This document shows positions 13,513 through 29,286 of a stretch of DNA of 55,548 nt, piece by piece. How positions within the stretch are numbered: the stretch's first letter is position 1; every line of letters begins with the position of its first letter. The notes beneath the pieces are model-generated. The model searched no databases, was not told the DNA's origin, and saw only the letters and a list, made by a program, of their open reading frames with translations. This DNA comes from a virus: UHGV virus genome UHGV-0016284; one strand, 5' to 3'. The translations under genes and the position numbers were made by a program.

Positions 13513-14066
13513 AATTCCAACCCCGTTTCACCGTTAAGTTTTTCTATTTCAAATACTGGTTTATCCGGCAACAAGCCATTATTTTTCCGGTATTCGTTCA
13601 GGCGGCTATCAAAGTCAAACGCCAGATCATTGGCGTGACCGAATCGCCCAGGTTTAAACAGTGAGTAAAAGTTAACGCCGTGTCTATTTGGATCAACGCA
13701 AAGCGTTTCATCAATCACCATTAAACGCATAGTACGAGAAAGATAATTCCACGGTATTCCCGTTTCAGCGCTAATGTCGCGCATACGTTTTTTAACGCTG
13801 TAGTCACCAAATAACGACGCAACACGCTTACGACGTTCAGCATATAACTGTTTAATGCGATAACCCAGCAGGCGGCGGCGGCGTCCAAAACATGTATACA
13901 CGCGCTCGACGATGCCGTTTTTTATTAAGTGTTTAATTGTCTCAGGCATGATTCCATCCTTATCATACCAAGCCAATAACCCTGTTTTCTGGCGTAACTG
14001 GTGCATTGTTGCGATGCCATCAAGTTCAAGGATATTGATAATTTTTGTTTCAATTTCAGCGCTCAT
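13509..14066 (-). CDS. hypothetical protein (185 aa), downstream of the helicase gene
   Basis: ORF in operon; basic, possibly winged-helix-like; no firm motif. Confidence 0.5.
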   Translation of the reverse strand: MSAEIETKIINILELDGIATMHQLRQKTGLLAWYDKDGIMPETIKHLIKNGIVERVYTCFGRRRRLLGYRIKQLYAERRKRVASLFGDYSVKKRMRDISAETGIPWNYLSRTMRLMVIDETLCVDPNRHGVNFYSLFKPGRFGHANDLAFDFDSRLNEYRKNNGLLPDKPVFEIEKLNGETGLEL

Positions 14067-14142
14067 TTTTAGCCTCGTTTAAAACGCGATAACAGCCACC
14101 AGAAAGCGGTAAACTTTCCGGTAAGCCGTTTGCTCAGATTAA

Positions 14143-15558
14143 TTAAAAAGATGTGTTATTCTGATTGTTTCGTTGGTTAAAACGGCTTGTGCGATGATTC
14201 ATTGACTGAATACACGCGGCGGCTGCGCGAGCCTGGTCGCATGGCAAGATATTACCGTTGTCATCAAACCGCTGGTAAACAGTTCCAGACTTACCATGAC
14301 GGTTTTTGGACACAATGATTTCCATATATTCGCGGGCAACAGACTGTTCGTCGTAATACCCATCGCGGTAAACCATGATGATCCTGTCGGCATCTTGCTC
14401 AAGGTTGCCAGAATCACGAAGATCAGAATTGTTAGGGCGCTTGTTCGGTCGTTCCTCAACGCGGCGTGACAGTTGCGCCAGCGCCAACACTGGTACACGC
14501 AATTCTTTCGCCATCATCTTTAACGACCACGACAATTGCCCAACGGCGAGATCGTGACGTTCGGCCTTAGCCAGCTGCATTAAGCCGATATAGTCAATCA
14601 TTACCATACCCAAATTTGGGTGATCCTGTTTCATGCGTTCCGTTGTTGCGCGTATTTCCTCAACCGTTAACTGCGACGCGTCAACGATCCACACATCAAG
14701 GTTAGCAAGTGCGCTCATACCCTGGCCGACATGCGCCCACCCTTCATCATCAAGTTTTACCGGATTGCGCAGGCAGTCAGTTGATAAATTACCAGCGCCA
14801 GCGATAGCTCGCTCAGTCATCTGATCGAGTGACATTTCAAGAGTGAAGAACAAAACGCCAACCCGCTGATCTTTACTGCCAGGGTAAGGGCGTTCAGCGG
14901 CAGCGCGGGCAATTGTCAGCGCCAACGCAGATTTACCAGACCCAGGGCGTCCGGCGAGAAGTACCAAATCAGTAGCGTTAATGCCGCCTAACATTTCATC
15001 GAGCGGGTCAATACCTGTTTTGATGTTGTCAGAATTAACACCGCATTCCATGCGCTTGCTTAAAACATCCGTATATTCCTGTACCGCATCGCGCAACAAC
15101 ACCGGAATGATCTTGTCTTTCGTTACCTTTAATTTTGAATATCGGGAATCAAAATCCTTCATCGTCTCTTTGACGACCTCAAGCGTACCTGTTTCCAGCT
15201 TGTAACGCATATCGTCGATGAGTTCCAACATCTGCCGCCGCTGGTGCTCTTCACGTAGTAGCTGTGCGTATCCCTTCAGGTTGGCAGCAGACGGGCACGA
15301 TCGCGCCGTTTGCATTAGCGGTACAAAGTTTTCATTGCCAATCTCATCGCCAACCAATAACGCGTCGATAAGATTTCTGTTTCTGGCTTGCGCCCGGATA
15401 ACTTCAAACGCACGTTTATACAGCGGAATCGTGAACACTTCAGGATCAAGCGTGGCGAGAACATCTTGCGCGTTAGGAGTAAGGCCACCCAACAACAGCC
15501 CGCCGATAACTGACGCCTCACGTTCCTGCCGTAGTGAGTTTATTTGCTCAGTTACCAT
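14143..15558 (-). CDS. replicative DNA helicase, DnaB family
   Basis: Walker A GRPGSGKSALALTIA, DnaB-like N-terminal domain, RecA-fold C-terminal half (VMIDYIGLMQ; LAQLSRRVEERPNKRP). Confidence 0.85.
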   Translation of the reverse strand: MVTEQINSLRQEREASVIGGLLLGGLTPNAQDVLATLDPEVFTIPLYKRAFEVIRAQARNRNLIDALLVGDEIGNENFVPLMQTARSCPSAANLKGYAQLLREEHQRRQMLELIDDMRYKLETGTLEVVKETMKDFDSRYSKLKVTKDKIIPVLLRDAVQEYTDVLSKRMECGVNSDNIKTGIDPLDEMLGGINATDLVLLAGRPGSGKSALALTIARAAAERPYPGSKDQRVGVLFFTLEMSLDQMTERAIAGAGNLSTDCLRNPVKLDDEGWAHVGQGMSALANLDVWIVDASQLTVEEIRATTERMKQDHPNLGMVMIDYIGLMQLAKAERHDLAVGQLSWSLKMMAKELRVPVLALAQLSRRVEERPNKRPNNSDLRDSGNLEQDADRIIMVYRDGYYDEQSVAREYMEIIVSKNRHGKSGTVYQRFDDNGNILPCDQARAAAACIQSMNHRTSRFNQRNNQNNTSF

Positions 15559-15576
15559 TATGTTATTGCCTCCGGT

Positions 15577-16695
15577 TTACAAAATGGAATATTCAGGGTA
15601 ATAAACAAAGCGCCCTATCTCACCATGATCCGGGCTGTAAATAATCACCGCTGCCAGCCGACGCGACCGCCAGCCGCCATTAGTTGAATATGCGTCTTTG
15701 CCCGCTAACGTTCCGTGGTGTTCGACGATCCCCAATGATGTTTCAACGACAGATTGGTGGTGTAGGTGTCCAGTGTGAGCGTAAACAGCAACCGACTTGC
15801 CGAAATCCTCCCGCCAGTCAGATACGCAAGCCGACAATAAATTTTCTGGCTTTTTGATAGTGTGCCCGTGGTGGTAAGCAAGGAATGTTTTACCGTACTG
15901 CGTGTGGTGGACGATAGCAGGGGACACATCAACAGTTACGCGCGGTTCGTCTTCGTAAAAAGCTGCCAGCGCCGCACGTAGCCAAATCATGCCTGACTGA
16001 TCGTGATTGCCTGATAACACCTGGATTTCAACATCCTTATGATTTAACAACATTTTACCTACCGCCCGCCGGACCGACCGGATCGCCACATAAACAAGTT
16101 TTGCGTAGCGCGAATCACAATCTAGGACGTGATTGCTTGATGGTGTGACTGGTAATAGCCCGTCAGTGTGAAGTAGATCGCCACCGAGAAGCAATACAGC
16201 TTTTTCAGACATCGGCGCAGCGCCTACAGCGTAGTCGAAGAAGTCATTCAACACGCGCTCAGCGATCCCGGTGTCGTAGCTCTCTCCACATTCTGCTCTG
16301 TGAGCAAGCGCCCCGATATGCAGATCAAATACCGGATAAAGGGCCAGGCTTTTTTGGAAATCAATTTCAGGCACTGGCACAGCCTCCGCGCGTGGTATCT
16401 CATCCGTGAAAGCGTCGCGGGCCGCTTCCATTAGCTGTTCCATTTCGTCGCGGTCACGGGCTGTTTTAATCCAGCGCATGATCACATTGCCGTTCTTATC
16501 GACCAGTAACGACTCGCCATTGACGCCAAAACCAGGGGCGCGGCGCGTTGATAATAAACCGCGTTTCGCCAGCTTTGCGCCCAGCCGCTCGACGTTGCGT
16601 TTTGACATACCATATTTTTCAGCGATCTGCTTGTACGTTAAACCGTTGTTATATTCAGCGATCAATTGCTCATCGCTTATCTTTCTTTGTGACAT
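15577..16695 (-). CDS. fusion protein: N-terminal helix-turn-helix plus C-terminal calcineurin-like metallophosphoesterase
   Basis: N-terminus LTYKQIAEKYGMSKRNVERL (HTH). C-terminal half carries the ordered metallophosphoesterase motifs DLHIG, GGDLLHTDG, GNHD, HHGH, GHLHH. Confidence 0.6.
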   Translation of the reverse strand: MSQRKISDEQLIAEYNNGLTYKQIAEKYGMSKRNVERLGAKLAKRGLLSTRRAPGFGVNGESLLVDKNGNVIMRWIKTARDRDEMEQLMEAARDAFTDEIPRAEAVPVPEIDFQKSLALYPVFDLHIGALAHRAECGESYDTGIAERVLNDFFDYAVGAAPMSEKAVLLLGGDLLHTDGLLPVTPSSNHVLDCDSRYAKLVYVAIRSVRRAVGKMLLNHKDVEIQVLSGNHDQSGMIWLRAALAAFYEDEPRVTVDVSPAIVHHTQYGKTFLAYHHGHTIKKPENLLSACVSDWREDFGKSVAVYAHTGHLHHQSVVETSLGIVEHHGTLAGKDAYSTNGGWRSRRLAAVIIYSPDHGEIGRFVYYPEYSIL

Positions 16696-16729
16696 AGTGT
16701 CATTTCCTCACGAATAACAAATTGTATAC

Positions 16730-17398
16730 TTAGTTACAAGTTAAAAGCTCAGTGATCCATACTTGTCCTTTAGCAGTGAATACAGCCTGCTCATATCCAT
16801 CGTGAGTTACCCTCATTTCACCGTAGCCCTCATCAATAAACCACTGACTAAATACACGGCGGCGACAGCGAAGATCGTAAACACCAACAGCCGAAAGTTT
16901 TCTGTTTAATTTTACGGCTGACATTCCCAGCGGTTTAGCAACCTCTGAAGCCGTTCGGTGCATATCGTTTTTGACTATCGCGTCACATACAGCCGCTTTT
17001 GGCGCAAGTTCCTTATTAACCAGTGCAAGCCGTTCTTTTTCCTCAGCAAGATCGGCAGCAAGGCGCAACGCTTCGCTTAATGTTTGAGGAATTGCAGGGG
17101 CGTTTTGCTGTACCCGTTTTTCAAGTTCCTGCCAGCGGTCGATGATGCGAGCACGTAACTCAACGCTATAGCCAGATACAACCAGCAAAGAGTCACGCTT
17201 AGTTAAAAGCCATTCCCTCTGTGTTTGATTGTTGTATCCTTTGTAAGTTACTGATTTGCTTGATTCCCCCAAATTTGGGGCAATGACGTCAATGTCTCTC
17301 AATATGTGATCGTGCCGTTTACCAGTTAGCTTGGCGATCTCACGAGAAGACATTGTTAATACTTCGTTCGCCCCATTAAGCGCCATTAATTCAGACAT
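16730..17398 (-). CDS. Rha-family phage regulatory protein / antirepressor-like
   Basis: N-terminus ...TMSSREIAKLTGKRHDHILRDI is the Rha-family signature; C-terminal coiled-coil/KilA-C-like region. Confidence 0.6.
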   Translation of the reverse strand: MSELMALNGANEVLTMSSREIAKLTGKRHDHILRDIDVIAPNLGESSKSVTYKGYNNQTQREWLLTKRDSLLVVSGYSVELRARIIDRWQELEKRVQQNAPAIPQTLSEALRLAADLAEEKERLALVNKELAPKAAVCDAIVKNDMHRTASEVAKPLGMSAVKLNRKLSAVGVYDLRCRRRVFSQWFIDEGYGEMRVTHDGYEQAVFTAKGQVWITELLTCN

Positions 17399-17479
17399 TT
17401 TATTTTCTCCGGTTTACTGAATATATATTCACAAAGAAAATTGACATCACCCGCCATAAATGACGTGGTTCTAATGCTT

Positions 17480-19297
17480 TCAATGGTGAAATAAACCTTT
17501 AACCTTGCTAAAGAATCCGTCTTCTGGCTTTTTATCGAGCCGGTACAGTAATTCTTTTACTTTGTCTTGCAATGCCATTATCAGCTTACGATAACGTTCA
17601 TGATTGCGCTGTTGACGCTGTTTCAGGTCGCCCATGTACCGTTTTTGTGCTGCCCGGCGTTGCATGTTGCGAGCAATCAGTTTGTTATATCTGTCTGATA
17701 GTTGGTTATAGCCAGATTGTAAGATGTTCACATTATTTTGCAGTTCCAGTTTATCATCCTCAAGTTCTGCCACTTTAAGCTGATAGCCCTTGATAACTAG
17801 AGCCTTGTTGCCTGCCTCCTGTTGTTGCACTTTGATTATTTCCTTCGCTTCTGTCAGATCTGCACGAAGGTCGTTGATTGTTTGTTTGTCTGCCGCAGCT
17901 TTCGCTTTTGCGTCTTCGTCATTTGCAGCGTTGAGTTTTTGGCGTAGTTCGCAATTAGTTTTTACCAGGTTGTCGCGCTCACTTTCCAGCTTCTGGCGTT
18001 TACCCTGTTCGTCACCAAATGCCTTATTCGCCTCGCTGTATTGGTGTTTCCAGTAGTCAACGCGTTGCTGATAGTTGTCGCGATCTTCTCTCGCTATGTT
18101 GAGCACTCCATGTAATTCCTTGATTTGTCCTTCCAGCGTTTTTACCTGGCATTTAAGATCTCCCACCTGTTTGCTATCTGTTTGCTGCGCAATAGCCGCG
18201 CTGATATGGTTGTCTTTAAATTTGCGAAAGGCCACCGATAAATCAACCCGATCCTTTTCCGCCCCTATACGTGCAACTATCATCCCTGCTATCTCAAACG
18301 GCGCATAGCCTTTTTTGATCTGCATGTCACAGTGTTCAGTGCAATAGATGTAACCAGGAAGTTTATTCAGGCTTTCGATGCGGTGGCGCAATTCGTCATC
18401 GTCAACACCATAAGCCGAAGCAATGTCCATCAGATTGATTTCATCTGTGTCATTAACGCGAACATCGTAACCGTGGAATTTAAACGCTCTAGGTAACTTC
18501 TGTTCCGGCGGTTCAGTGTTAATTTCTATTTGCTTCATTTCTTCACCTTCATAATAACGCTGTTTAATGTGTTCCGCTTCCTCTGGTGAGATATAATCAG
18601 GGAAGTTATTTATTTGTTTGCCGAAATACTTGATCTCACCCTGGATGCGCGCCTTTATTGCGTCGTTGATGTTGTTGAAACAACCAAGATTGTGAGTCAT
18701 TCCATCAGCTGAAATATACGCCCTCCATTTATTAGTCACTTTGTCCAAATAAATACCTTTGATTCCGCTATCTCCAAAAGGCTGACGTTTTACGTTAATC
18801 TCACTGAGTGTGATTAATTTCAGGTTTTCAATTTTCACGCATGAGTCATCAGCGTTTTCTATTACATAACCATCAGGAATAGGGCCGTTAAACATTTCCC
18901 ACACAATGCGATGCAAGTAATATTGGGCGTGATTTATTTTCAACCTAAATTTTTTAGCTACTTTTGCTCTGTCTTCACTCCCGCGAATAATATCGCCAGG
19001 TTTGATACGATTTTTCCCCACTCCCCGCGCCACCTTACTGACCAGATAACCATCAGGATGATAATCAAATAATTCAGGCCAGTTTTCCGCACACTGGCTG
19101 CAATCAGCGTACTGAATATCGCCAGCTTCCACCGCTGTTATTTCCTTCCAATAGCCACCGGCCACCATGCGTACAAACTCGCTTTCTTTACCCCAATGAT
19201 TCCACGTTTGATATTTACGCTTCCGCATAAACACCATTCCTTCATCAATTTTTGCAAACAATTTACTTCCTCTTATCGATATAAAATATCTAGACAT
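17480..19297 (-). CDS. multidomain HNH endonuclease (HNH + AP2-like + Bro-N/KilA-N-like) with long C-terminal coiled coil
   Basis: YLHRIVWEMFNGPIPDGYVIEN.DD..VKIENLKLIT (HNH_3-like); IKGIYLDKVTNKWRAYISADGMTHNLGCFNNINDAIKAR (AP2-like); FKFHGYDVRV..EINLMDIASAYGV (Bro-N-like); about 230 aa heptad-rich tail. Start set to ATG at 19297 (GAGG ribosome-binding site); track start 19345 is TTG. Confidence 0.6.
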   Translation of the reverse strand: MSRYFISIRGSKLFAKIDEGMVFMRKRKYQTWNHWGKESEFVRMVAGGYWKEITAVEAGDIQYADCSQCAENWPELFDYHPDGYLVSKVARGVGKNRIKPGDIIRGSEDRAKVAKKFRLKINHAQYYLHRIVWEMFNGPIPDGYVIENADDSCVKIENLKLITLSEINVKRQPFGDSGIKGIYLDKVTNKWRAYISADGMTHNLGCFNNINDAIKARIQGEIKYFGKQINNFPDYISPEEAEHIKQRYYEGEEMKQIEINTEPPEQKLPRAFKFHGYDVRVNDTDEINLMDIASAYGVDDDELRHRIESLNKLPGYIYCTEHCDMQIKKGYAPFEIAGMIVARIGAEKDRVDLSVAFRKFKDNHISAAIAQQTDSKQVGDLKCQVKTLEGQIKELHGVLNIAREDRDNYQQRVDYWKHQYSEANKAFGDEQGKRQKLESERDNLVKTNCELRQKLNAANDEDAKAKAAADKQTINDLRADLTEAKEIIKVQQQEAGNKALVIKGYQLKVAELEDDKLELQNNVNILQSGYNQLSDRYNKLIARNMQRRAAQKRYMGDLKQRQQRNHERYRKLIMALQDKVKELLYRLDKKPEDGFFSKVKGLFHH

Positions 19298-19464
19298 TAT
19301 TAATACCTCGCATTTAGTAATTTGCTTTTGCATGGATACAATCAATAAAACGCGCTACAACGCAAAAATCCCACCGCGTAACCCATTTGCACAGGTTGCA
19401 GTGTCTTATTGCGTCAGAGGCGCTTTCAGGTGGCTAATTTTTGATTTACAGACTGGTATGAAGG

Positions 19465-19566
19465 TTATGGATTGACCAGAAGGAACAAACCGCCGAACAA
19501 AGCGACGTTAACAGCGATTGCCGCAGCGATGGCAAAAGCCAGGGCGAAAACGTGTTTACCGTCCAT
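19465..19566 (-). CDS. hydrophobic minipeptide (33 aa, one predicted TM helix)
   Basis: MDGKHVFALAFAIAAAIAVNVALFGGLFLLVNP; GAGAGG ribosome-binding site upstream; intergenic location between the HNH and initiator genes. Confidence 0.3.
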   Translation of the reverse strand: MDGKHVFALAFAIAAAIAVNVALFGGLFLLVNP

Positions 19567-19703
19567 TTTAAAATCCTCTCTGTAACGCTCTATAACGAGC
19601 TAATCGCAAAAAGGTAAGCAAGTGTAGCACCATATGCGATTTAGCTCGCTGGTGAGCTTGTTTTGTGGGTGATTTTGGATTTTTGGTAATGCCGAATGGT
19701 TGT

Positions 19704-20750
19704 TTATGGGAAATTCCGTGTCTTGCGGAGCGTTTCGGGCTTCAGCAGAAAATCTATATCAGCCCGCCAGCCAGTGTTGTTGTTGCCAAAGTAGAAGTCG
19801 GGGGCATGCTTGTTGAAGTACTCGAAGTAGTTGATGAATGCTGTGATGTTTTTCTCCTTCATGCTGTCAGCCAGTCTATGTATCTTTCTCTCCAGATCGC
19901 GATCAAGCTCTGCATACGGCAGTGAGTCGCCGAATGTGTTGTTGTAGGCTTCTACTACCTCAGCAGCATCAATAACCGCGCCTTTTTGTTTCCATTGATT
20001 TGCCTTATCAAGTTTCTCAGCAAACAGCGTCTTCCTGCATATATTGAGTGGCGACAACTCGCCAGGTTCTTTCCTCCACACGCTCGCCACCCAATCAATG
20101 ACCAGTTTGATATCGTCAGGTGTAAAGCCGTTTGCTAGCAGCGTAACGAAAGGGCGGCTATCCCTGCTTTTCCCGCCGAGTCTGTCGCGGAAGTAGCTAA
20201 GCATATCCATTGCCTTAATCTGGTTTTGCGAAAGACCATTATCAACCACACTTTCCCCCTGTAGGGGGATTATAGGGGGTATATCTTTTTCTTTTTTTAC
20301 CTTGTTATTATTTATATCTACCTTGTTAGAGTCCCCCTCTAGGGACTTTGACTTGGCAAATGAAAGTCCCCCTCTAGGGACTTTGACTTCTTCTGCGGGG
20401 ATGGGTAAAAGTCCCCCTCTAGGGACTTTGACTTCTTCTGCGAGAATGAAGTCTTCAATGCTCATATCTTCGTTTTTTTGTACGACCTCCTTAAACTTTT
20501 CACTGAACCTGTAGATGTTCGAGGTGTTATATCTTCTTTTTCTGGATAGTACCCCGTATCTTTCCAGGACTTTTATTGCTGCAATGACGGAATCCCTTTT
20601 TATGTGACACCTTCTGGCTAGCGTGTCTATGCTCGGGTAGCATTGGTTTTTATCGTGGTCAGCATACCAGGCCAAAGTAATGAGGACGTAACTTACATTG
20701 CGATCATCAATAAGAAGCCTGAACGCGCGATCCTGTAGTTCGTATGCCAT
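19704..20750 (-). CDS. replication initiator (lambda O-like organisation, origin iterons inside the gene)
   Basis: N-terminal HTH-like domain (PSIDTLARRCHIKRDSVIAAIKVLERYGVL); central linker EEVKVPRGGLLPIPAEEVKVPRGGL encoded by DNA iterons; first long gene of the leftward early operon. Confidence 0.6.
   Translation of the reverse strand: MAYELQDRAFRLLIDDRNVSYVLITLAWYADHDKNQCYPSIDTLARRCHIKRDSVIAAIKVLERYGVLSRKRRYNTSNIYRFSEKFKEVVQKNEDMSIEDFILAEEVKVPRGGLLPIPAEEVKVPRGGLSFAKSKSLEGDSNKVDINNNKVKKEKDIPPIIPLQGESVVDNGLSQNQIKAMDMLSYFRDRLGGKSRDSRPFVTLLANGFTPDDIKLVIDWVASVWRKEPGELSPLNICRKTLFAEKLDKANQWKQKGAVIDAAEVVEAYNNTFGDSLPYAELDRDLERKIHRLADSMKEKNITAFINYFEYFNKHAPDFYFGNNNTGWRADIDFLLKPETLRKTRNFP
20285..20440. 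repeat. origin-like iterons (3 copies of a 25-bp unit) with adjacent AT-rich tract
   Basis: agtccccctctagggactttgactt at 20330-20354, 20365-20389 and 20410-20434, each with an internal inverted repeat (agtccc/gggact); AT-rich ctttttctttttttaccttgttattatttatatc upstream. Confidence 0.55.
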
Positions 20751-20758
20751 ACATCACC

Positions 20759-21163
20759 TCAAAACGGCGCTGTTCTCTGTTGGAATTTATCCAGAAAATC
20801 ATCGCTACCATCAAGTTCTAATGCGTAAAACATATCGCAATCACCCTTGCCTGGCTTATCATGCTTGATGGCTATGATGTCCTTAATTTCTTTGTCTTTT
20901 ATGTCCTTATATGGCCCGCAAAATACAGGGTGATACGGGAAAACACCTTCGCGTAGTTTTTGGTATAAGTCAGATCTCGTTATTCCGGCCCACCAGGCTA
21001 ATCTAAACAGATTGTCTTCGCGGAACACCACATAGTAAGTGTTGTGGTATTGGCAATCGGCAAGATACATGGCGATCAGCCTGTCTTCCGCTTTCCAGTA
21101 ATAAGTCTTATCGATGATATCCCTTGCTGTAGCAGCAAGATTGATTGAGTCATCGTTAATCAT
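20759..21163 (-). CDS. hypothetical protein (134 aa), first gene of the leftward operon
   Basis: ATG at 21163 preceded by AGGAGA; track version starts at TTG 21241. Not Cro-like in size or sequence. Confidence 0.5.
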   Translation of the reverse strand: MINDDSINLAATARDIIDKTYYWKAEDRLIAMYLADCQYHNTYYVVFREDNLFRLAWWAGITRSDLYQKLREGVFPYHPVFCGPYKDIKDKEIKDIIAIKHDKPGKGDCDMFYALELDGSDDFLDKFQQRTAPF

Positions 21164-21380
21164 TCTTGTGTCTCCTATGGTTAGAGTGAACGCGCGGGCG
21201 GGCATCCCATTAGCATTAGATAGCAGTGACTGACCGCTCAACAGATCCCGCCGTTGCGTGATATTTGTTTTTCGCTTCGCAGCGACACCGGATTTTTAAA
21301 GAGCTTAAGTGGTTGGCCTTTTGTGCTTTCCGTTATCTTTTTTCTTGCATCATTGCAACTATGGCCTTACCTTGTTTGCA

Positions 21381-21425
21381 AGTTTACAGAATGGCGTTGA
21401 CAGGTCAAGGCTTTAAAAATACGTT
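21381..21425. promoter_or_regulatory. divergent overlapping promoters with palindromic -35 region (immunity-region control)
   Basis: Plus strand: TTGACA (21397-21402), 17-bp spacer, TACGTT. Minus strand: TTGACC (complement of 21403-21408), 16-bp spacer, TAAACT (complement of 21381-21386). The two -35 elements form the palindrome TTGACAGGTCAA. Confidence 0.4.
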
Positions 21426-21467
21426 TTGTGACTTGTATCAAACTTTTTTAGGTTATAGGGTAGCGAC

Positions 21468-22115
21468 ATGAAAACAAAATGGTATGACTTAGCAAAACAA
21501 CTCATGCGGGCGCAGGGCATGAGCCAGGATTCATTGGCTGATCTCATGGGGATAACCAAAGGTGGCCTTTCGCACTGGCTGAACGGTCGCCGTGAGCCAA
21601 ATCTTGAAGATATTGCGCGGATTATGCGGGCGCTTGGGCGTCGGCAGTTTACTGTCACACATGACGGGATGGTTATCGATGATTCTGTTTCTAACACTTT
21701 ACCGGGAGCGCCACCGCGTGATTTAGGCAGTTACCCGGTTGTTGACTGGAAGGATGTAGCAAACAATATGGAAGGCATACGCCGATCAACATTGCCACAT
21801 GTTACTACTAACGTTATTTGTTCGGATGATAGTTATTGGCTGGTAGCTAAAGGTGAATCAATGAACGCACCGCAGGGGTTAAGCATCCCTGCCGGTACTA
21901 TGATACTTATTGACCCGCACGCGCCAGCTATTGATGGTAAACTGGTTATAGCTCAACTCGAAGAAGGGCAAATACCGACGTTTAAACAATTGATTATTGA
22001 TGGAGGCCGAAAACTTTTGCGTTCACTGAATCCGTTGTATCCGCCGATCCCTATGAATCCAGAATCAAAAATCATTGGCGTGGTTGTTGATGCGAAGATC
22101 GTAAACCTGCCATAA
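21468..22115 (+). CDS. cI-like repressor (HTH_XRE N-terminus, LexA/S24 autopeptidase C-terminus)
   Basis: N-terminal HTH (MSQDSLADLMGITKGGLSHWLNGRREP); C-terminal S24 fold with GESM (Ser nucleophile) and downstream Lys (TFKQL). Confidence 0.8.
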   Translation: MKTKWYDLAKQLMRAQGMSQDSLADLMGITKGGLSHWLNGRREPNLEDIARIMRALGRRQFTVTHDGMVIDDSVSNTLPGAPPRDLGSYPVVDWKDVANNMEGIRRSTLPHVTTNVICSDDSYWLVAKGESMNAPQGLSIPAGTMILIDPHAPAIDGKLVIAQLEEGQIPTFKQLIIDGGRKLLRSLNPLYPPIPMNPESKIIGVVVDAKIVNLP

Positions 22116-28177: not shown

Positions 28178-28661
28178 CAGGTTATTAGCCTGCGTTTATG
28201 TCGCCGTTTTTGTGATCATCAACCTTATTGTTAACCACTGCGGCCCGTGGGTAATTCCGATCACCACGGTAGCCGCCGTGTGTGTCAATATGATGATCCG
28301 CGACTTTCTGTTATATGACGGCGGCCTGAAATGGTCGGCTACAACATGCGCCGTCGCTGGCGCAATCACGGTGCTAATAAATTACGATGCAGGAATGGTG
28401 GCAATAGCGTCATTCGTCGCGGTTGTTTCAGGTGCGCTTATATCTGGCGGTGTTTACCGGGTTTTGCCTGGTGATTTCGATTCGAAGCGCTGGCCTGCAA
28501 ATATAGCTTCAGCCATCGGGGATGCGTTAATTTTCCCGACGCTATCGTTTATGGCGTTTATGCCGGAAATATCAGCAATGCAGTTTATCTCAAAAATGGC
28601 AGCGGTAACGGTGATCACTATCATCATGCGCCGCTATTTCACGTTTGAGGGTAGGAAATGA
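28158..28661 (+). CDS. integral membrane protein (4-5 predicted TM helices); possible DUF165/VUT-type transporter
   Basis: Hydrophobic throughout; loose similarity by eye to YhhQ-family transporters (ASAIGDALIFPTLSFMAF versus YhhQ ASTLFGNVSDTLAFFFIAF). Family assignment is tentative. Confidence 0.5.
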   Translation: MERVTIDRLLACVYVAVFVIINLIVNHCGPWVIPITTVAAVCVNMMIRDFLLYDGGLKWSATTCAVAGAITVLINYDAGMVAIASFVAVVSGALISGGVYRVLPGDFDSKRWPANIASAIGDALIFPTLSFMAFMPEISAMQFISKMAAVTVITIIMRRYFTFEGRK

Positions 28662-29185
28662 ATTGGGATGATTATTTTATATACAATCCAGATACAGGTA
28701 AGTTGTACTGGAAATATAGAAATGACATAGAAGAATCAAGGCGTAAACAATGGAATGCGTGTAATGCTGGTCATGAAGTTGGACATATTGGCGGTAGCGG
28801 TGGGTATCTTAATACAGCGCTTACCGTTGGTGGAAAGCGTTATAATTTAAAAGTTCACAGAATATGTTATGAGATGTACTATGGCCCAATACCTGAAGGA
28901 AAGGAGGTTGATCATATAAATCACATTAAAACAGATAACAGAGCAGTAAATCTTGGATTAAAGGACCATAAAGATAATATGCGCAACATGTCTTTGATGG
29001 TAAACAATACCAGTGGATGTACTGGCGTACATAAAAACAAACATGGGAAATGGGTTGTTAGAATAGGAGGAGGCAAAAGAGGCAATAGGATTTATATAGG
29101 TTGTTTTTCTGATATTAATGACGCAATAAAAGCGCGGCGCGACGCTGAAAAAGAGTATGGATATCACGAAAACCACGGCAAATAG
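28658..29185 (+). CDS. HNH endonuclease with AP2-like DNA-binding domain (homing-endonuclease-like)
   Basis: YNLKVHRICYEMYYGPIPEGKEVDHINHIKTDNRAVNL (HNH_3-like); CTGVHKNKHGKWVVRIG....IYIGCFSDINDAIKARR (AP2-like). Confidence 0.65.
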   Translation: MNWDDYFIYNPDTGKLYWKYRNDIEESRRKQWNACNAGHEVGHIGGSGGYLNTALTVGGKRYNLKVHRICYEMYYGPIPEGKEVDHINHIKTDNRAVNLGLKDHKDNMRNMSLMVNNTSGCTGVHKNKHGKWVVRIGGGKRGNRIYIGCFSDINDAIKARRDAEKEYGYHENHGK

Positions 29186-29286
29186 AACAAGCCACCGCCG
29201 CGCGGCTTCGCCCGTGCTGTATTCCTGGCTAACGACCGGGCCATCACGCGGACTACGCTTAACCGCGTTTTACCGGACTAAAGTTT

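What the first reader, a model, noticed from the sequence alone, without database searches (positions are those of the whole stretch)
17480..19297. Two HNH-AP2 endonuclease genes, one a 605-aa fusion with a Bro-N-like domain and long coiled coil
The replication module is interrupted by an HNH + AP2 + Bro-N-like + about 230-aa coiled-coil protein (17480-19297), and a second compact HNH-AP2 endonuclease lies at 28658-29185 next to NinG. HNH-AP2 proteins are typical homing endonucleases; the extra domains in the large one are unusual and suggest an added regulatory or antirepressor-like role. Their positions may mark recent mobile insertions.
Basis: partly seen in the sequence, partly recalled or inferred. 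Interest (0 to 1): 0.4.

Follow-up and report, generated by a model that had tools for sequence, protein, structure and literature searches.

The report
Nuclease-dead HNH-AP2 fusion gene cassette
The large gene is a real, conserved fusion protein built from a homing-endonuclease DNA-binding module that has lost its cutting residues, joined to a second DNA-binding-type domain and a long coiled coil, so it is most likely a domesticated DNA-binding accessory protein, whereas the small second gene looks like a genuine mobile endonuclease.

Summary
Both ORFs exist as described, in an mEp021-like (mEpimmI) E. coli temperate phage. The 605-aa protein (17480-19297, minus strand) matches Pfam HNH_3. 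It has an AP2-like domain, a middle domain with a KilA-N/APSES-type fold (found by structure only) and about 210 aa of coiled coil.

It is probably not an active homing endonuclease. The catalytic histidine (I-HmuI H75) is Asn in all 29 aligned relatives, and the metal-ligand positions are not conserved. Every domain is still under purifying selection (dN/dS 0.06-0.49).

The gene sits in a clean 1,934-bp cassette (17412-19345) that four relatives lack at the identical junction, with no target-site duplication. About 50 relatives are known, all from E. coli. Six of the seven contexts I examined, counting this window, are this same slot; the seventh is a different integrated element.

My best reading is a domesticated, nuclease-dead DNA-binding early protein. 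Its function is unknown.

The 175-aa HNH (28658-29185) keeps all catalytic residues. It has replaced most of a cytosine-methyltransferase gene, leaving a 3' remnant. It also occurs at about 75% identity beside homologous methyltransferase genes in unrelated T1-like phages, so it looks like a real mobile homing endonuclease gene.

Overall this is a new variant of a known kind, of moderate interest.

The parts
17412..19345 (-). 1,934-bp cassette carrying only the 605-aa gene. It is absent at exactly this junction in prophages of E. coli 2-331 and N1286 and in phages mEp554 and mEp515.
   Evidence: The empty site reads ...GCGCGTTTTA|CGGAGAAAATAAAATG(ant). The window has 1,934 bp between the two halves, with no target-site duplication.
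17480..19297 (-). CDS of the 605-aa fusion protein (stop codon 17480-17482).
19112..19297 (-). aa 1-62: small beta-rich N-terminal domain of unknown fold family. It comes in about three sequence variants within the family.
   Evidence: pLDDT 65-78; no Pfam hit.
18923..19111 (-). aa 63-125: CxxC motif (C66, C69), invariant H80, and the strands that precede the HNH core. Residues 90-125 are hypervariable.
   Evidence: Alignment to the N-terminal strands of compact HNH proteins.
18788..18922 (-). aa 126-170: degenerate HNH_3 (beta-beta-alpha-Me) core. E147 and N148 replace I-HmuI D74 and H75.
18854..18856 (-). Codon AAC = N148, at the position of the catalytic general-base histidine. It is Asn in 29 of 29 relatives.
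18608..18787 (-). aa 171-230: AP2-like DNA-binding domain (three strands plus a helix).
   Evidence: E=0.028; 13 of 29 members; TEM1 AP2.
18494..18607 (-). aa 231-268: conserved acidic linker. It contains an internal ATG (M254, 18536-18538) preceded by the SD-like sequence AAGGTG.
18212..18493 (-). aa 269-362: domain with a KilA-N/APSES-type fold. It has no sequence relatives outside the family.
17534..18169 (-). aa 377-588: two long helices, modelled as an antiparallel coiled-coil hairpin.
17483..17533 (-). aa 589-605: KKPE-G linker followed by a conserved amphipathic tail, GFFSKVKGLFHH.
19346..19685 (-). Conserved 340-bp flank (91-93% identical in the relatives with a collinear flank: mEp554, mEp515, L004 and L005). 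It holds a 33-aa hydrophobic ORF (19465-19566) and forms the upstream boundary of the cassette.
16730..17398 (-). Downstream neighbour: a Rha plus KilAC (ANT) antirepressor-type gene. Its ribosome-binding site abuts the cassette.
28658..29185 (+). Compact 175-aa HNH(-AP2-like) endonuclease gene with its catalytic residues intact.
29196..29281 (+). 3' remnant (last ~29 codons) of the DNA cytosine methyltransferase gene that fills this slot in relatives.

Best explanation
The 605-aa gene encodes a domesticated, nuclease-dead derivative of an HNH-AP2 homing endonuclease.

Shown:
- The HNH_3 scaffold and the AP2-like domain are retained.
- The general-base histidine is Asn in every relative, and the two metal-ligand positions are not conserved.
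- This module is fused through a conserved acidic linker to a KilA-N/APSES-type domain, a coiled coil of about 210 aa and a short amphipathic tail.
- All domains are under purifying selection.
- The gene is an optional 1.9-kb cassette in the variable slot between the replication-initiator region and the antirepressor gene of mEp021-like phages. It lies in the same orientation as the early replication genes.

Inferred:
- The protein binds specific DNA through the dead-HNH/AP2 module, and possibly through the KilA-N-like domain.
- It oligomerises through the coiled coil.
- It acts early in lytic growth as a regulator or as an exclusion/competition factor, not as a nuclease.
- Because it cannot cut, the cassette spreads by ordinary recombination between its conserved flanks, not by self-catalysed homing.

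The 175-aa gene, by contrast, is a catalytically intact free-standing HNH homing endonuclease gene. It travels together with the 5' part of a dcm-like methyltransferase gene.
For: Loss of the active site. Alignments to I-HmuI (1U3E) and to four intact HNH proteins put E147 and N148 at D74 and H75. Across 29 relatives (51-88% identical to the window protein) the H75 position is Asn 29/29. The D74 position is E21, K6, I1, N1. The N96 position is Asn in only 13/29. The structural N87 position is kept in 27/29. In His-Me finger nucleases the histidine is the general base, and groups that lack it are inactive or use a substitute residue (PMC5714182).

Not a decaying relic. About 50 full-length clusters of 600-690 aa exist. 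Nei-Gojobori dN/dS is 0.06-0.49 in every domain against three alleles.

Cassette. Exact junction with four empty sites. Five other alleles sit in the same slot. Flanks are 90-93% identical in nucleotides while the gene is 75-88% identical, with mosaic dS.

Precedents. HEG-derived DNA-binding proteins are known, for example CapR and plant AP2 factors (PMC8096241, PMC10448857).

Small gene. D/H/N/N are all conserved. It is present in 5 of 35 complete genomes that have the slot. Homologues of about 75% aa identity lie beside cytosine-methyltransferase genes in T1-like phages. The HNH plus 5'-methyltransferase unit is 74.5% nt identical between prophage RM9245 and phage Kalemo. The RM9245 methyltransferase is 71% identical to Kalemo's but only 53% identical to the resident mEp554 allele.
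Against: - No biochemical test was possible. A substitute catalytic residue, as with the tyrosine of PacI, cannot be excluded from sequence alone.
- DNA binding, oligomerisation and any regulatory or exclusion role are inferred from domain identity only.
- The clean, duplication-free insertion next to a conserved sequence is also what an active free-standing HEG would leave.
- One relative lies in a different element (L013), so some lateral movement has occurred by an unknown route.
- The full-length model is of modest confidence (pLDDT 66).
- AP2 is below Pfam's threshold in the window protein itself.
Confidence: 0.62

Rival explanations
1. The 605-aa protein is an active free-standing HNH-AP2 homing endonuclease with extra domains. 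It inserted itself at this intergenic site.
For: HNH_3 and AP2 homology. A clean 1,934-bp insertion without target duplication. Presence/absence polymorphism among relatives. One copy in another element.
Against: Asn replaces the general-base His in 29 of 29 relatives, and the metal-ligand positions are variable. Six of seven contexts are the same slot. There is no copy in 50,697 phage records or in 5,426 complete E. coli genomes, which is unlike a spreading HEG.
Confidence: 0.1
2. It is an antirepressor-type or lysis-lysogeny regulator. The KilA-N-like domain and the coiled coil would bind a repressor or another protein, and the HEG-derived part would target it to DNA.
For: It lies immediately upstream of a Rha plus KilAC antirepressor-type gene in the early operon. 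The KilA-N/Bro-N-type fold is common in phage antirepressors and regulators.
Against: There is no ANT/KilAC domain and no sequence similarity to any antirepressor family. The adjacency reflects a general cassette hot spot: other relatives carry zinc-ribbon genes there.
Confidence: 0.15
3. It is a conflict gene, for superinfection exclusion, anti-satellite action or anti-homing. A dead endonuclease would occupy the recognition sites of competing elements, with recognition surfaces that diversify in an arms race.
For: The gene is more diverged than its flanks, and its alleles are mosaic. The stretches before the HNH core and in the AP2 strands are the most variable parts of the N-terminal half. 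It is optional and rare. HEG domestication in phage-satellite conflicts has precedents.
Against: dN/dS is below 1 everywhere, with no sign of positive selection at this resolution. There is no PADLOC match other than 'homing endonuclease'. No target is known.
Confidence: 0.13

Closest known systems
I-HmuI / Pfam HNH_3 free-standing HNH(-AP2) homing endonucleases (His-Me finger group 2; the HNH-AP2 HEG family of Magnani et al. 2004, as cited in PMC10448857)
   Same: The N-terminal strands, the beta-beta-alpha scaffold with its structural Asn, and a C-terminal AP2-type domain. It is a free-standing gene in an intergenic phage site. The 175-aa gene is an ordinary member.
   Different: The 605-aa protein lacks the general-base His and has no conserved metal ligands. 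It carries about 60 extra N-terminal residues and about 370 extra C-terminal residues (a KilA-N-like domain and a coiled coil).
CapR of the Vibrio cholerae PLE satellite, and plant AP2/ERF factors (domesticated HEG DNA-binding modules; PMC8096241, PMC10448857)
   Same: A homing-endonuclease-derived DNA-binding module retained without nuclease function in a mobile-element setting.
   Different: CapR derives from T5orf172/GIY-YIG-type HEGs and is small. Here the dead HNH scaffold itself is kept and fused to a long coiled coil. No DNA target or regulatory effect is known.
KilA-N / Bro-N / APSES DNA-binding domains (P1 KilA, baculovirus BRO, poxvirus N1R/p28, yeast Mbp1)
   Different: No sequence-profile match to any of these families. 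The partner domains (dead HNH-AP2 and a coiled-coil hairpin) are not the usual KilA-C, ANT, RING or T5orf172 partners.
Smad MH1 domain (a His-Me finger that lost catalysis but still binds DNA; PMC5714182)
   Same: A His-Me finger scaffold kept as a non-catalytic DNA-binding unit.
   Different: Unrelated lineage and context. This is an analogy only.

Membership tests
HNH_3 / I-HmuI-type homing endonuclease (605-aa protein) | Match to the HNH_3 beta-beta-alpha-Me profile | tested here: met
   Pfam E=4.3e-11; 29 of 29 relatives.
HNH_3 / I-HmuI-type homing endonuclease (605-aa protein) | General-base histidine (I-HmuI H75) | tested here: not met
   N148 in the window protein, and Asn in 29 of 29 relatives.
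HNH_3 / I-HmuI-type homing endonuclease (605-aa protein) | Metal-ligand Asp/Asn (I-HmuI D74, N96) | tested here: not met
   Position 147 is E21/K6/I1/N1. Position 168 is Asn in only 13 of 29.
HNH_3 / I-HmuI-type homing endonuclease (605-aa protein) | Attached DNA-binding module (AP2) | tested here: met
   AP2 E=0.028 in the window protein; 13 of 29 relatives at or below 0.01; Foldseek TEM1 AP2, probability 0.99.
HNH_3 / I-HmuI-type homing endonuclease (605-aa protein) | Self-promoted mobility (homing): sporadic distribution and spread to cognate empty sites | tested here: inconclusive
   Clean presence/absence at one junction. However, six of seven contexts are the same slot, with one other element. 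Absent from phage isolates and from complete E. coli genomes.
HNH_3 / I-HmuI-type homing endonuclease (605-aa protein) | Site-specific DNA cleavage | not testable with these tools
   Needs an in-vitro assay.
KilA-N / Bro-N / APSES domain (aa 269-362) | Sequence-profile match (Pfam KilA-N or Bro-N) | tested here: not met
   No Pfam or NCBIfam hit at E up to 10 or up to 1. No outside homologue among 1.84 billion representatives.
KilA-N / Bro-N / APSES domain (aa 269-362) | Fold | tested here: met
Phage antirepressor (Ant: Bro-N/Rha plus ANT/KilAC) | ANT/KilAC C-terminal domain | tested here: not met
   Absent from the 605-aa protein. Present in the neighbouring gene 16730-17398.
Phage antirepressor (Ant: Bro-N/Rha plus ANT/KilAC) | Binds and inactivates the phage repressor | not testable with these tools
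   Needs interaction and induction assays.
Free-standing HNH homing endonuclease (175-aa protein) | HNH_3 profile with catalytic D/H, structural N and metal-ligand N | tested here: met
   E=2.9e-16. The alignment to 1U3E keeps D74, H75, N87 and N96.
Free-standing HNH homing endonuclease (175-aa protein) | AP2 DNA-binding domain | tested here: inconclusive
   No direct Pfam AP2 hit. The C-terminal half aligns with the AP2-like region of the 605-aa protein and with mEp021_10, whose AP2 hit has E=5.6e-5.
Free-standing HNH homing endonuclease (175-aa protein) | Sporadic distribution, linkage to a conserved target gene across unrelated genomes, and co-conversion of flanks | tested here: met
   5 of 35 genomes with the slot. 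About 75% aa homologues lie beside dcm-like methyltransferase genes in T1-like phages. The HNH plus 5'-methyltransferase unit was co-transferred.

The most novel reading that the evidence does not exclude
The family would be a previously undescribed class of domesticated homing-endonuclease proteins. A nuclease-dead HNH-AP2 reader with diversifying specificity is coupled to a KilA-N-like domain, a long coiled coil and a membrane- or partner-docking tail. It would act as an allele-specific DNA-occupancy or tethering factor in competition between related temperate phages or satellites, for example by blocking homing sites, origins or promoters of rivals.
Probability: 0.15. Interest if true: 0.6.

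Novelty: new variant of a known kind. Interest (0 to 1): 0.4.

Why it matters
The evidence here says the large one is a pseudo-nuclease that selection maintains. That would add a temperate-coliphage example to the short list of domesticated homing-endonuclease modules (CapR, Odn, plant AP2 factors). It also offers a tractable system, since E. coli K-12 is a host of the mEpimmI phages, for asking what a dead HNH-AP2 reader fused to a KilA-N-like domain and a coiled coil does. In addition, the locus provides matched filled and empty sites for two different HNH genes in one phage group. This allows direct tests of homing against passive cassette exchange.

Tried and rejected
- Stand-alone ancestor of the C-terminal half. 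P0050 (430 aa) starts exactly at M254, but it is 88% identical to the full-length P0028 and belongs to the same closed set of about 50 clusters. It is therefore a truncated gene call, not an independent lineage. Its contig could not be retrieved.
- Sequence searches for the middle domain. Pfam, NCBIfam, PHROGs, PDB sequences and 1.84 billion representatives gave nothing outside the family. The single outside hit, P0051 (E=2.5e-5), was a short repeated stretch and was not pursued.
- Defence-system models (PADLOC) gave only 'homing endonuclease'.
- Fold search with the full-length model was dominated by coiled-coil hits and said little about the globular domains apart from AP2.
- The afdb50 library was unavailable.
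- Similarity between the 605-aa protein and the genes that fill the slot in mEp021 or mEp554 (zinc-ribbon protein, 247-aa protein): none beyond the unrelated HNH gene.
- Pseudogene or relic reading: rejected because ORFs are intact in all relatives and dN/dS is below 0.5.
- Promoter and terminator scans around the cassette were not above chance for promoters (3 found against 8 expected).
- The mEpimmI paper does not discuss these genes.

Full report
**Identity of the window**

The region 14000-22000 is about 91% identical, over about half its length, to the Nus-dependent non-lambdoid coliphages mEp021, mEp010, mEp013, mEp044, mEp515, mEp554 and MagusPhagus. This is the mEpimmI group of PMC11893012.

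Gene order on the minus strand is as follows:
- MarR-like gene
- replication initiator (19704-20750)
- 33-aa hydrophobic ORF
- the 605-aa gene
- Rha plus KilAC antirepressor-type gene (16730-17398)
- 372-aa exonuclease-like gene
- DnaB helicase

**Check of the observation**

Both ORFs are real. The 605-aa reading (ATG at 19297, with GAGGT 7 nt upstream) is supported and by the shared M[SA]RYF start of all relatives.

HNH_3 is significant in both proteins: E=4.3e-11 and E=2.9e-16. PHROG 99 is also hit.

AP2 is sub-threshold in the window protein (E=0.028). It is found in 13 of 29 relatives, and the model matches the TEM1 AP2 domain.

The coiled coil is confirmed. AF2 predicts helices 377-459 and 471-588, modelled as a hairpin. 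The region also hits SMC arm profiles and structures.

The 'Bro-N-like' domain has no sequence relatives at all outside the family. A confident domain model (pLDDT 89.9, pTM 0.81) nevertheless has the KilA-N/APSES fold:
- weak but consistent BFVD hits to KilA, KilA-N, N1R/p28 and BRO-like proteins

**The large protein has lost the HNH active site**

The compact 175-aa protein aligns to I-HmuI (1U3E) with D74, H75, N87 and N96 all conserved.

In the 605-aa protein the same columns read E147, N148, N158 and N168. Across 29 relatives that are 51-88% identical to the window protein:
- the H75 column is Asn in 29 of 29
- the D74 column is E21, K6, I1, N1
- the N96 column is Asn in only 13 of 29
- the structural N87 column is kept in 27 of 29

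The histidine is the general base of His-Me finger nucleases. Groups that lack it are inactive or use a substitute residue (PMC5714182).

The family therefore keeps the scaffold but not the chemistry. A substitute catalytic residue cannot be excluded without an assay.

C66, C69, H80 and C153 are invariant. They may form a structural metal site; this was not tested.

**It is not a decaying relic**

Two independent searches of 5.8 billion proteins returned the same closed set of about 50 clusters (at 90% identity). All are from E. coli, and most are 600-690 aa.

Nei-Gojobori dN/dS against three alleles is 0.06-0.49 in every domain, including the dead HNH core.

dS varies from 0.03 to above 1 along the gene. 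The alleles are therefore mosaics.

The middle domain exists in two versions that are only about 25% identical. The N-terminal domain comes in about three versions.

**Cassette anatomy**

Prophages in E. coli 2-331 and N1286, and phages mEp554 and mEp515, read ...GCGTTGTAGCGCGTTTTA|CGGAGAAAATAAAATG, where the ATG is the ant start. The window has exactly 1,934 bp (17412-19345) between the two halves, with no target-site duplication.

Five other alleles (P0003, P0022, P0043, P0024, P0032) lie in the same slot of mEp021-like prophages. In one of these, a 380-aa zinc-ribbon gene is stacked at the same junction.

One allele (P0049) lies in an unrelated integrated element beside eutB.

The gene is absent from 50,697 phage records as a full-length protein. 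It is also absent at the DNA level from 5,426 complete E. coli genomes, although 33 of those genomes carry the flanking sequence.

Flanks are 90-93% identical between alleles, whereas the gene is 75-88% identical.

The picture is an old, rare and diverse optional cassette at a recombination hot spot. This is compatible with passive exchange through the conserved flanks. It does not fit a currently spreading endonuclease.

**Interpretation**

Shown:
- a selected, nuclease-dead HNH-AP2 module
- fused to a KilA-N-type domain, a long coiled coil and a conserved amphipathic tail
- encoded in the same orientation as the early genes

Inferred:
- sequence-specific DNA binding
- coiled-coil oligomerisation
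- a regulatory or competitive role

Domesticated HEG modules have precedents: CapR, Odn and plant AP2 factors (PMC8096241, PMC10448857).

An antirepressor role is not supported by any domain. ANT/KilAC is in the neighbouring gene, not in this one.

**The small gene**

In most relatives the slot after the membrane-protein gene holds a DNA cytosine methyltransferase.

In the window, 28662-29195 replaces all but the last ~29 codons of that gene. The remnant survives at 29196-29281.

Prophage RM9245 has the HNH gene followed by a full methyltransferase gene.

The slot shows three states, and 5 of the 35 complete genomes that have the slot carry the HNH:
- methyltransferase only
- HNH plus methyltransferase
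- HNH plus a deleted methyltransferase

Homologues of about 75% aa identity lie directly upstream of dcm-like methyltransferase genes in unrelated T1-like phages.

The HNH plus 5'-methyltransferase unit is 74.5% nt identical between RM9245 and phage Kalemo. The RM9245 methyltransferase is 71% identical to Kalemo's, but only 53% identical to the resident mEp554 allele.

Flanking target-gene sequence has thus travelled with the endonuclease gene. This is the expected footprint of a real homing endonuclease gene at a boundary of genetic exchange (PMC10448857).

**Verdict**

The small gene is an ordinary mobile HNH homing endonuclease gene. The large one is a new variant: a domesticated, catalytically dead HNH-AP2 fusion of unknown function. 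Interest is moderate.

Noticed in passing
window 29186-29281: The reading frame after the compact HNH gene still encodes the last ~29 residues (PPRGFARAVFLANDRAITRTTLNRVLPD*) of the cytosine methyltransferase that fills this slot in relatives. About 630 bp of the methyltransferase gene are missing compared with the HNH plus methyltransferase arrangement in E. coli RM9245.
   Followed up: yes
window 18870-18913: A 44-nt stretch encoding HRIVWEMFNGPIPDG is 93% identical to the otherwise distant HNH gene mEp021_10 / mEp515_11 (36% aa identity overall). This could be a gene-conversion patch or very strong local constraint.
   Followed up: partly
window 15559-15601: A third HNH slot is empty here. 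mEp021, mEp515 and locus L016 carry a 167-aa HNH-AP2 gene (about 511 bp) between the helicase and exonuclease-like genes. In the window these two genes are 18 bp apart, and the two alignment blocks overlap by about 10 bp (15592-15601).
   Followed up: partly
window 19465-19566 (minus strand): A 33-aa hydrophobic ORF (MDGKHVFALAFAIAAAIAVNVALFGGLFLLVNP) lies inside the conserved 340-bp flank. It is annotated or called in relatives (mEp554_13; L006 4572-4673; L016 4697-4798).
   Followed up: no
window 20363-20384 and 20408-20429: Two identical 22-bp palindromes (AAAGTCCCCCTCTAGGGACTTT), 45 bp apart, lie inside the replication-initiator gene. They encode a repeated EEVKVPRGGL peptide and are probably iterons of an origin inside the gene.
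   Followed up: no
window 18536-18555 (minus strand): An internal ATG (M254) at the start of the conserved MKQIEINTEP segment is preceded by the SD-like AAGGTG with a 5-nt spacer. Met is present in 28 of 29 relatives. A shorter isoform (KilA-N-like domain plus coiled coil) is possible.
   Followed up: partly
window 17483-17533 (aa 589-605): A conserved C-terminal tail, KKPE-G-GFFSKVKGLFHH, is set off from the coiled coil. Its hydrophobic moment is 0.39-0.43, similar to the value I computed for the MinD membrane-targeting helix (sequence taken from memory). It may be a membrane- or partner-docking peptide.
   Followed up: partly
L013 5001-7049 (Logan ERR3053470 contig): Family member P0049 (52% identical, with the second type of middle domain) lies in a different integrated element next to eutB/eutC. 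That element has its own integrase and replication-initiator-like genes, so the family is not confined to mEp021-like phages.
   Followed up: partly
L006 4827-5969: A 380-aa zinc-ribbon-type gene (faint DUF723, CapR and DUF4379 hits) is stacked between the conserved flank and the 635-aa homologue. The TTTTA| junction therefore accepts several different cassettes. mEp021 carries a 495-aa zinc-ribbon gene in place of ant.
   Followed up: no
window 19058-19102 and 18839-18841: C66, C69, H80 and C153 are invariant in all 29 relatives and absent from the compact HNH proteins. They could form a structural zinc site linking the N-terminal extension to the HNH hairpin.
   Followed up: no
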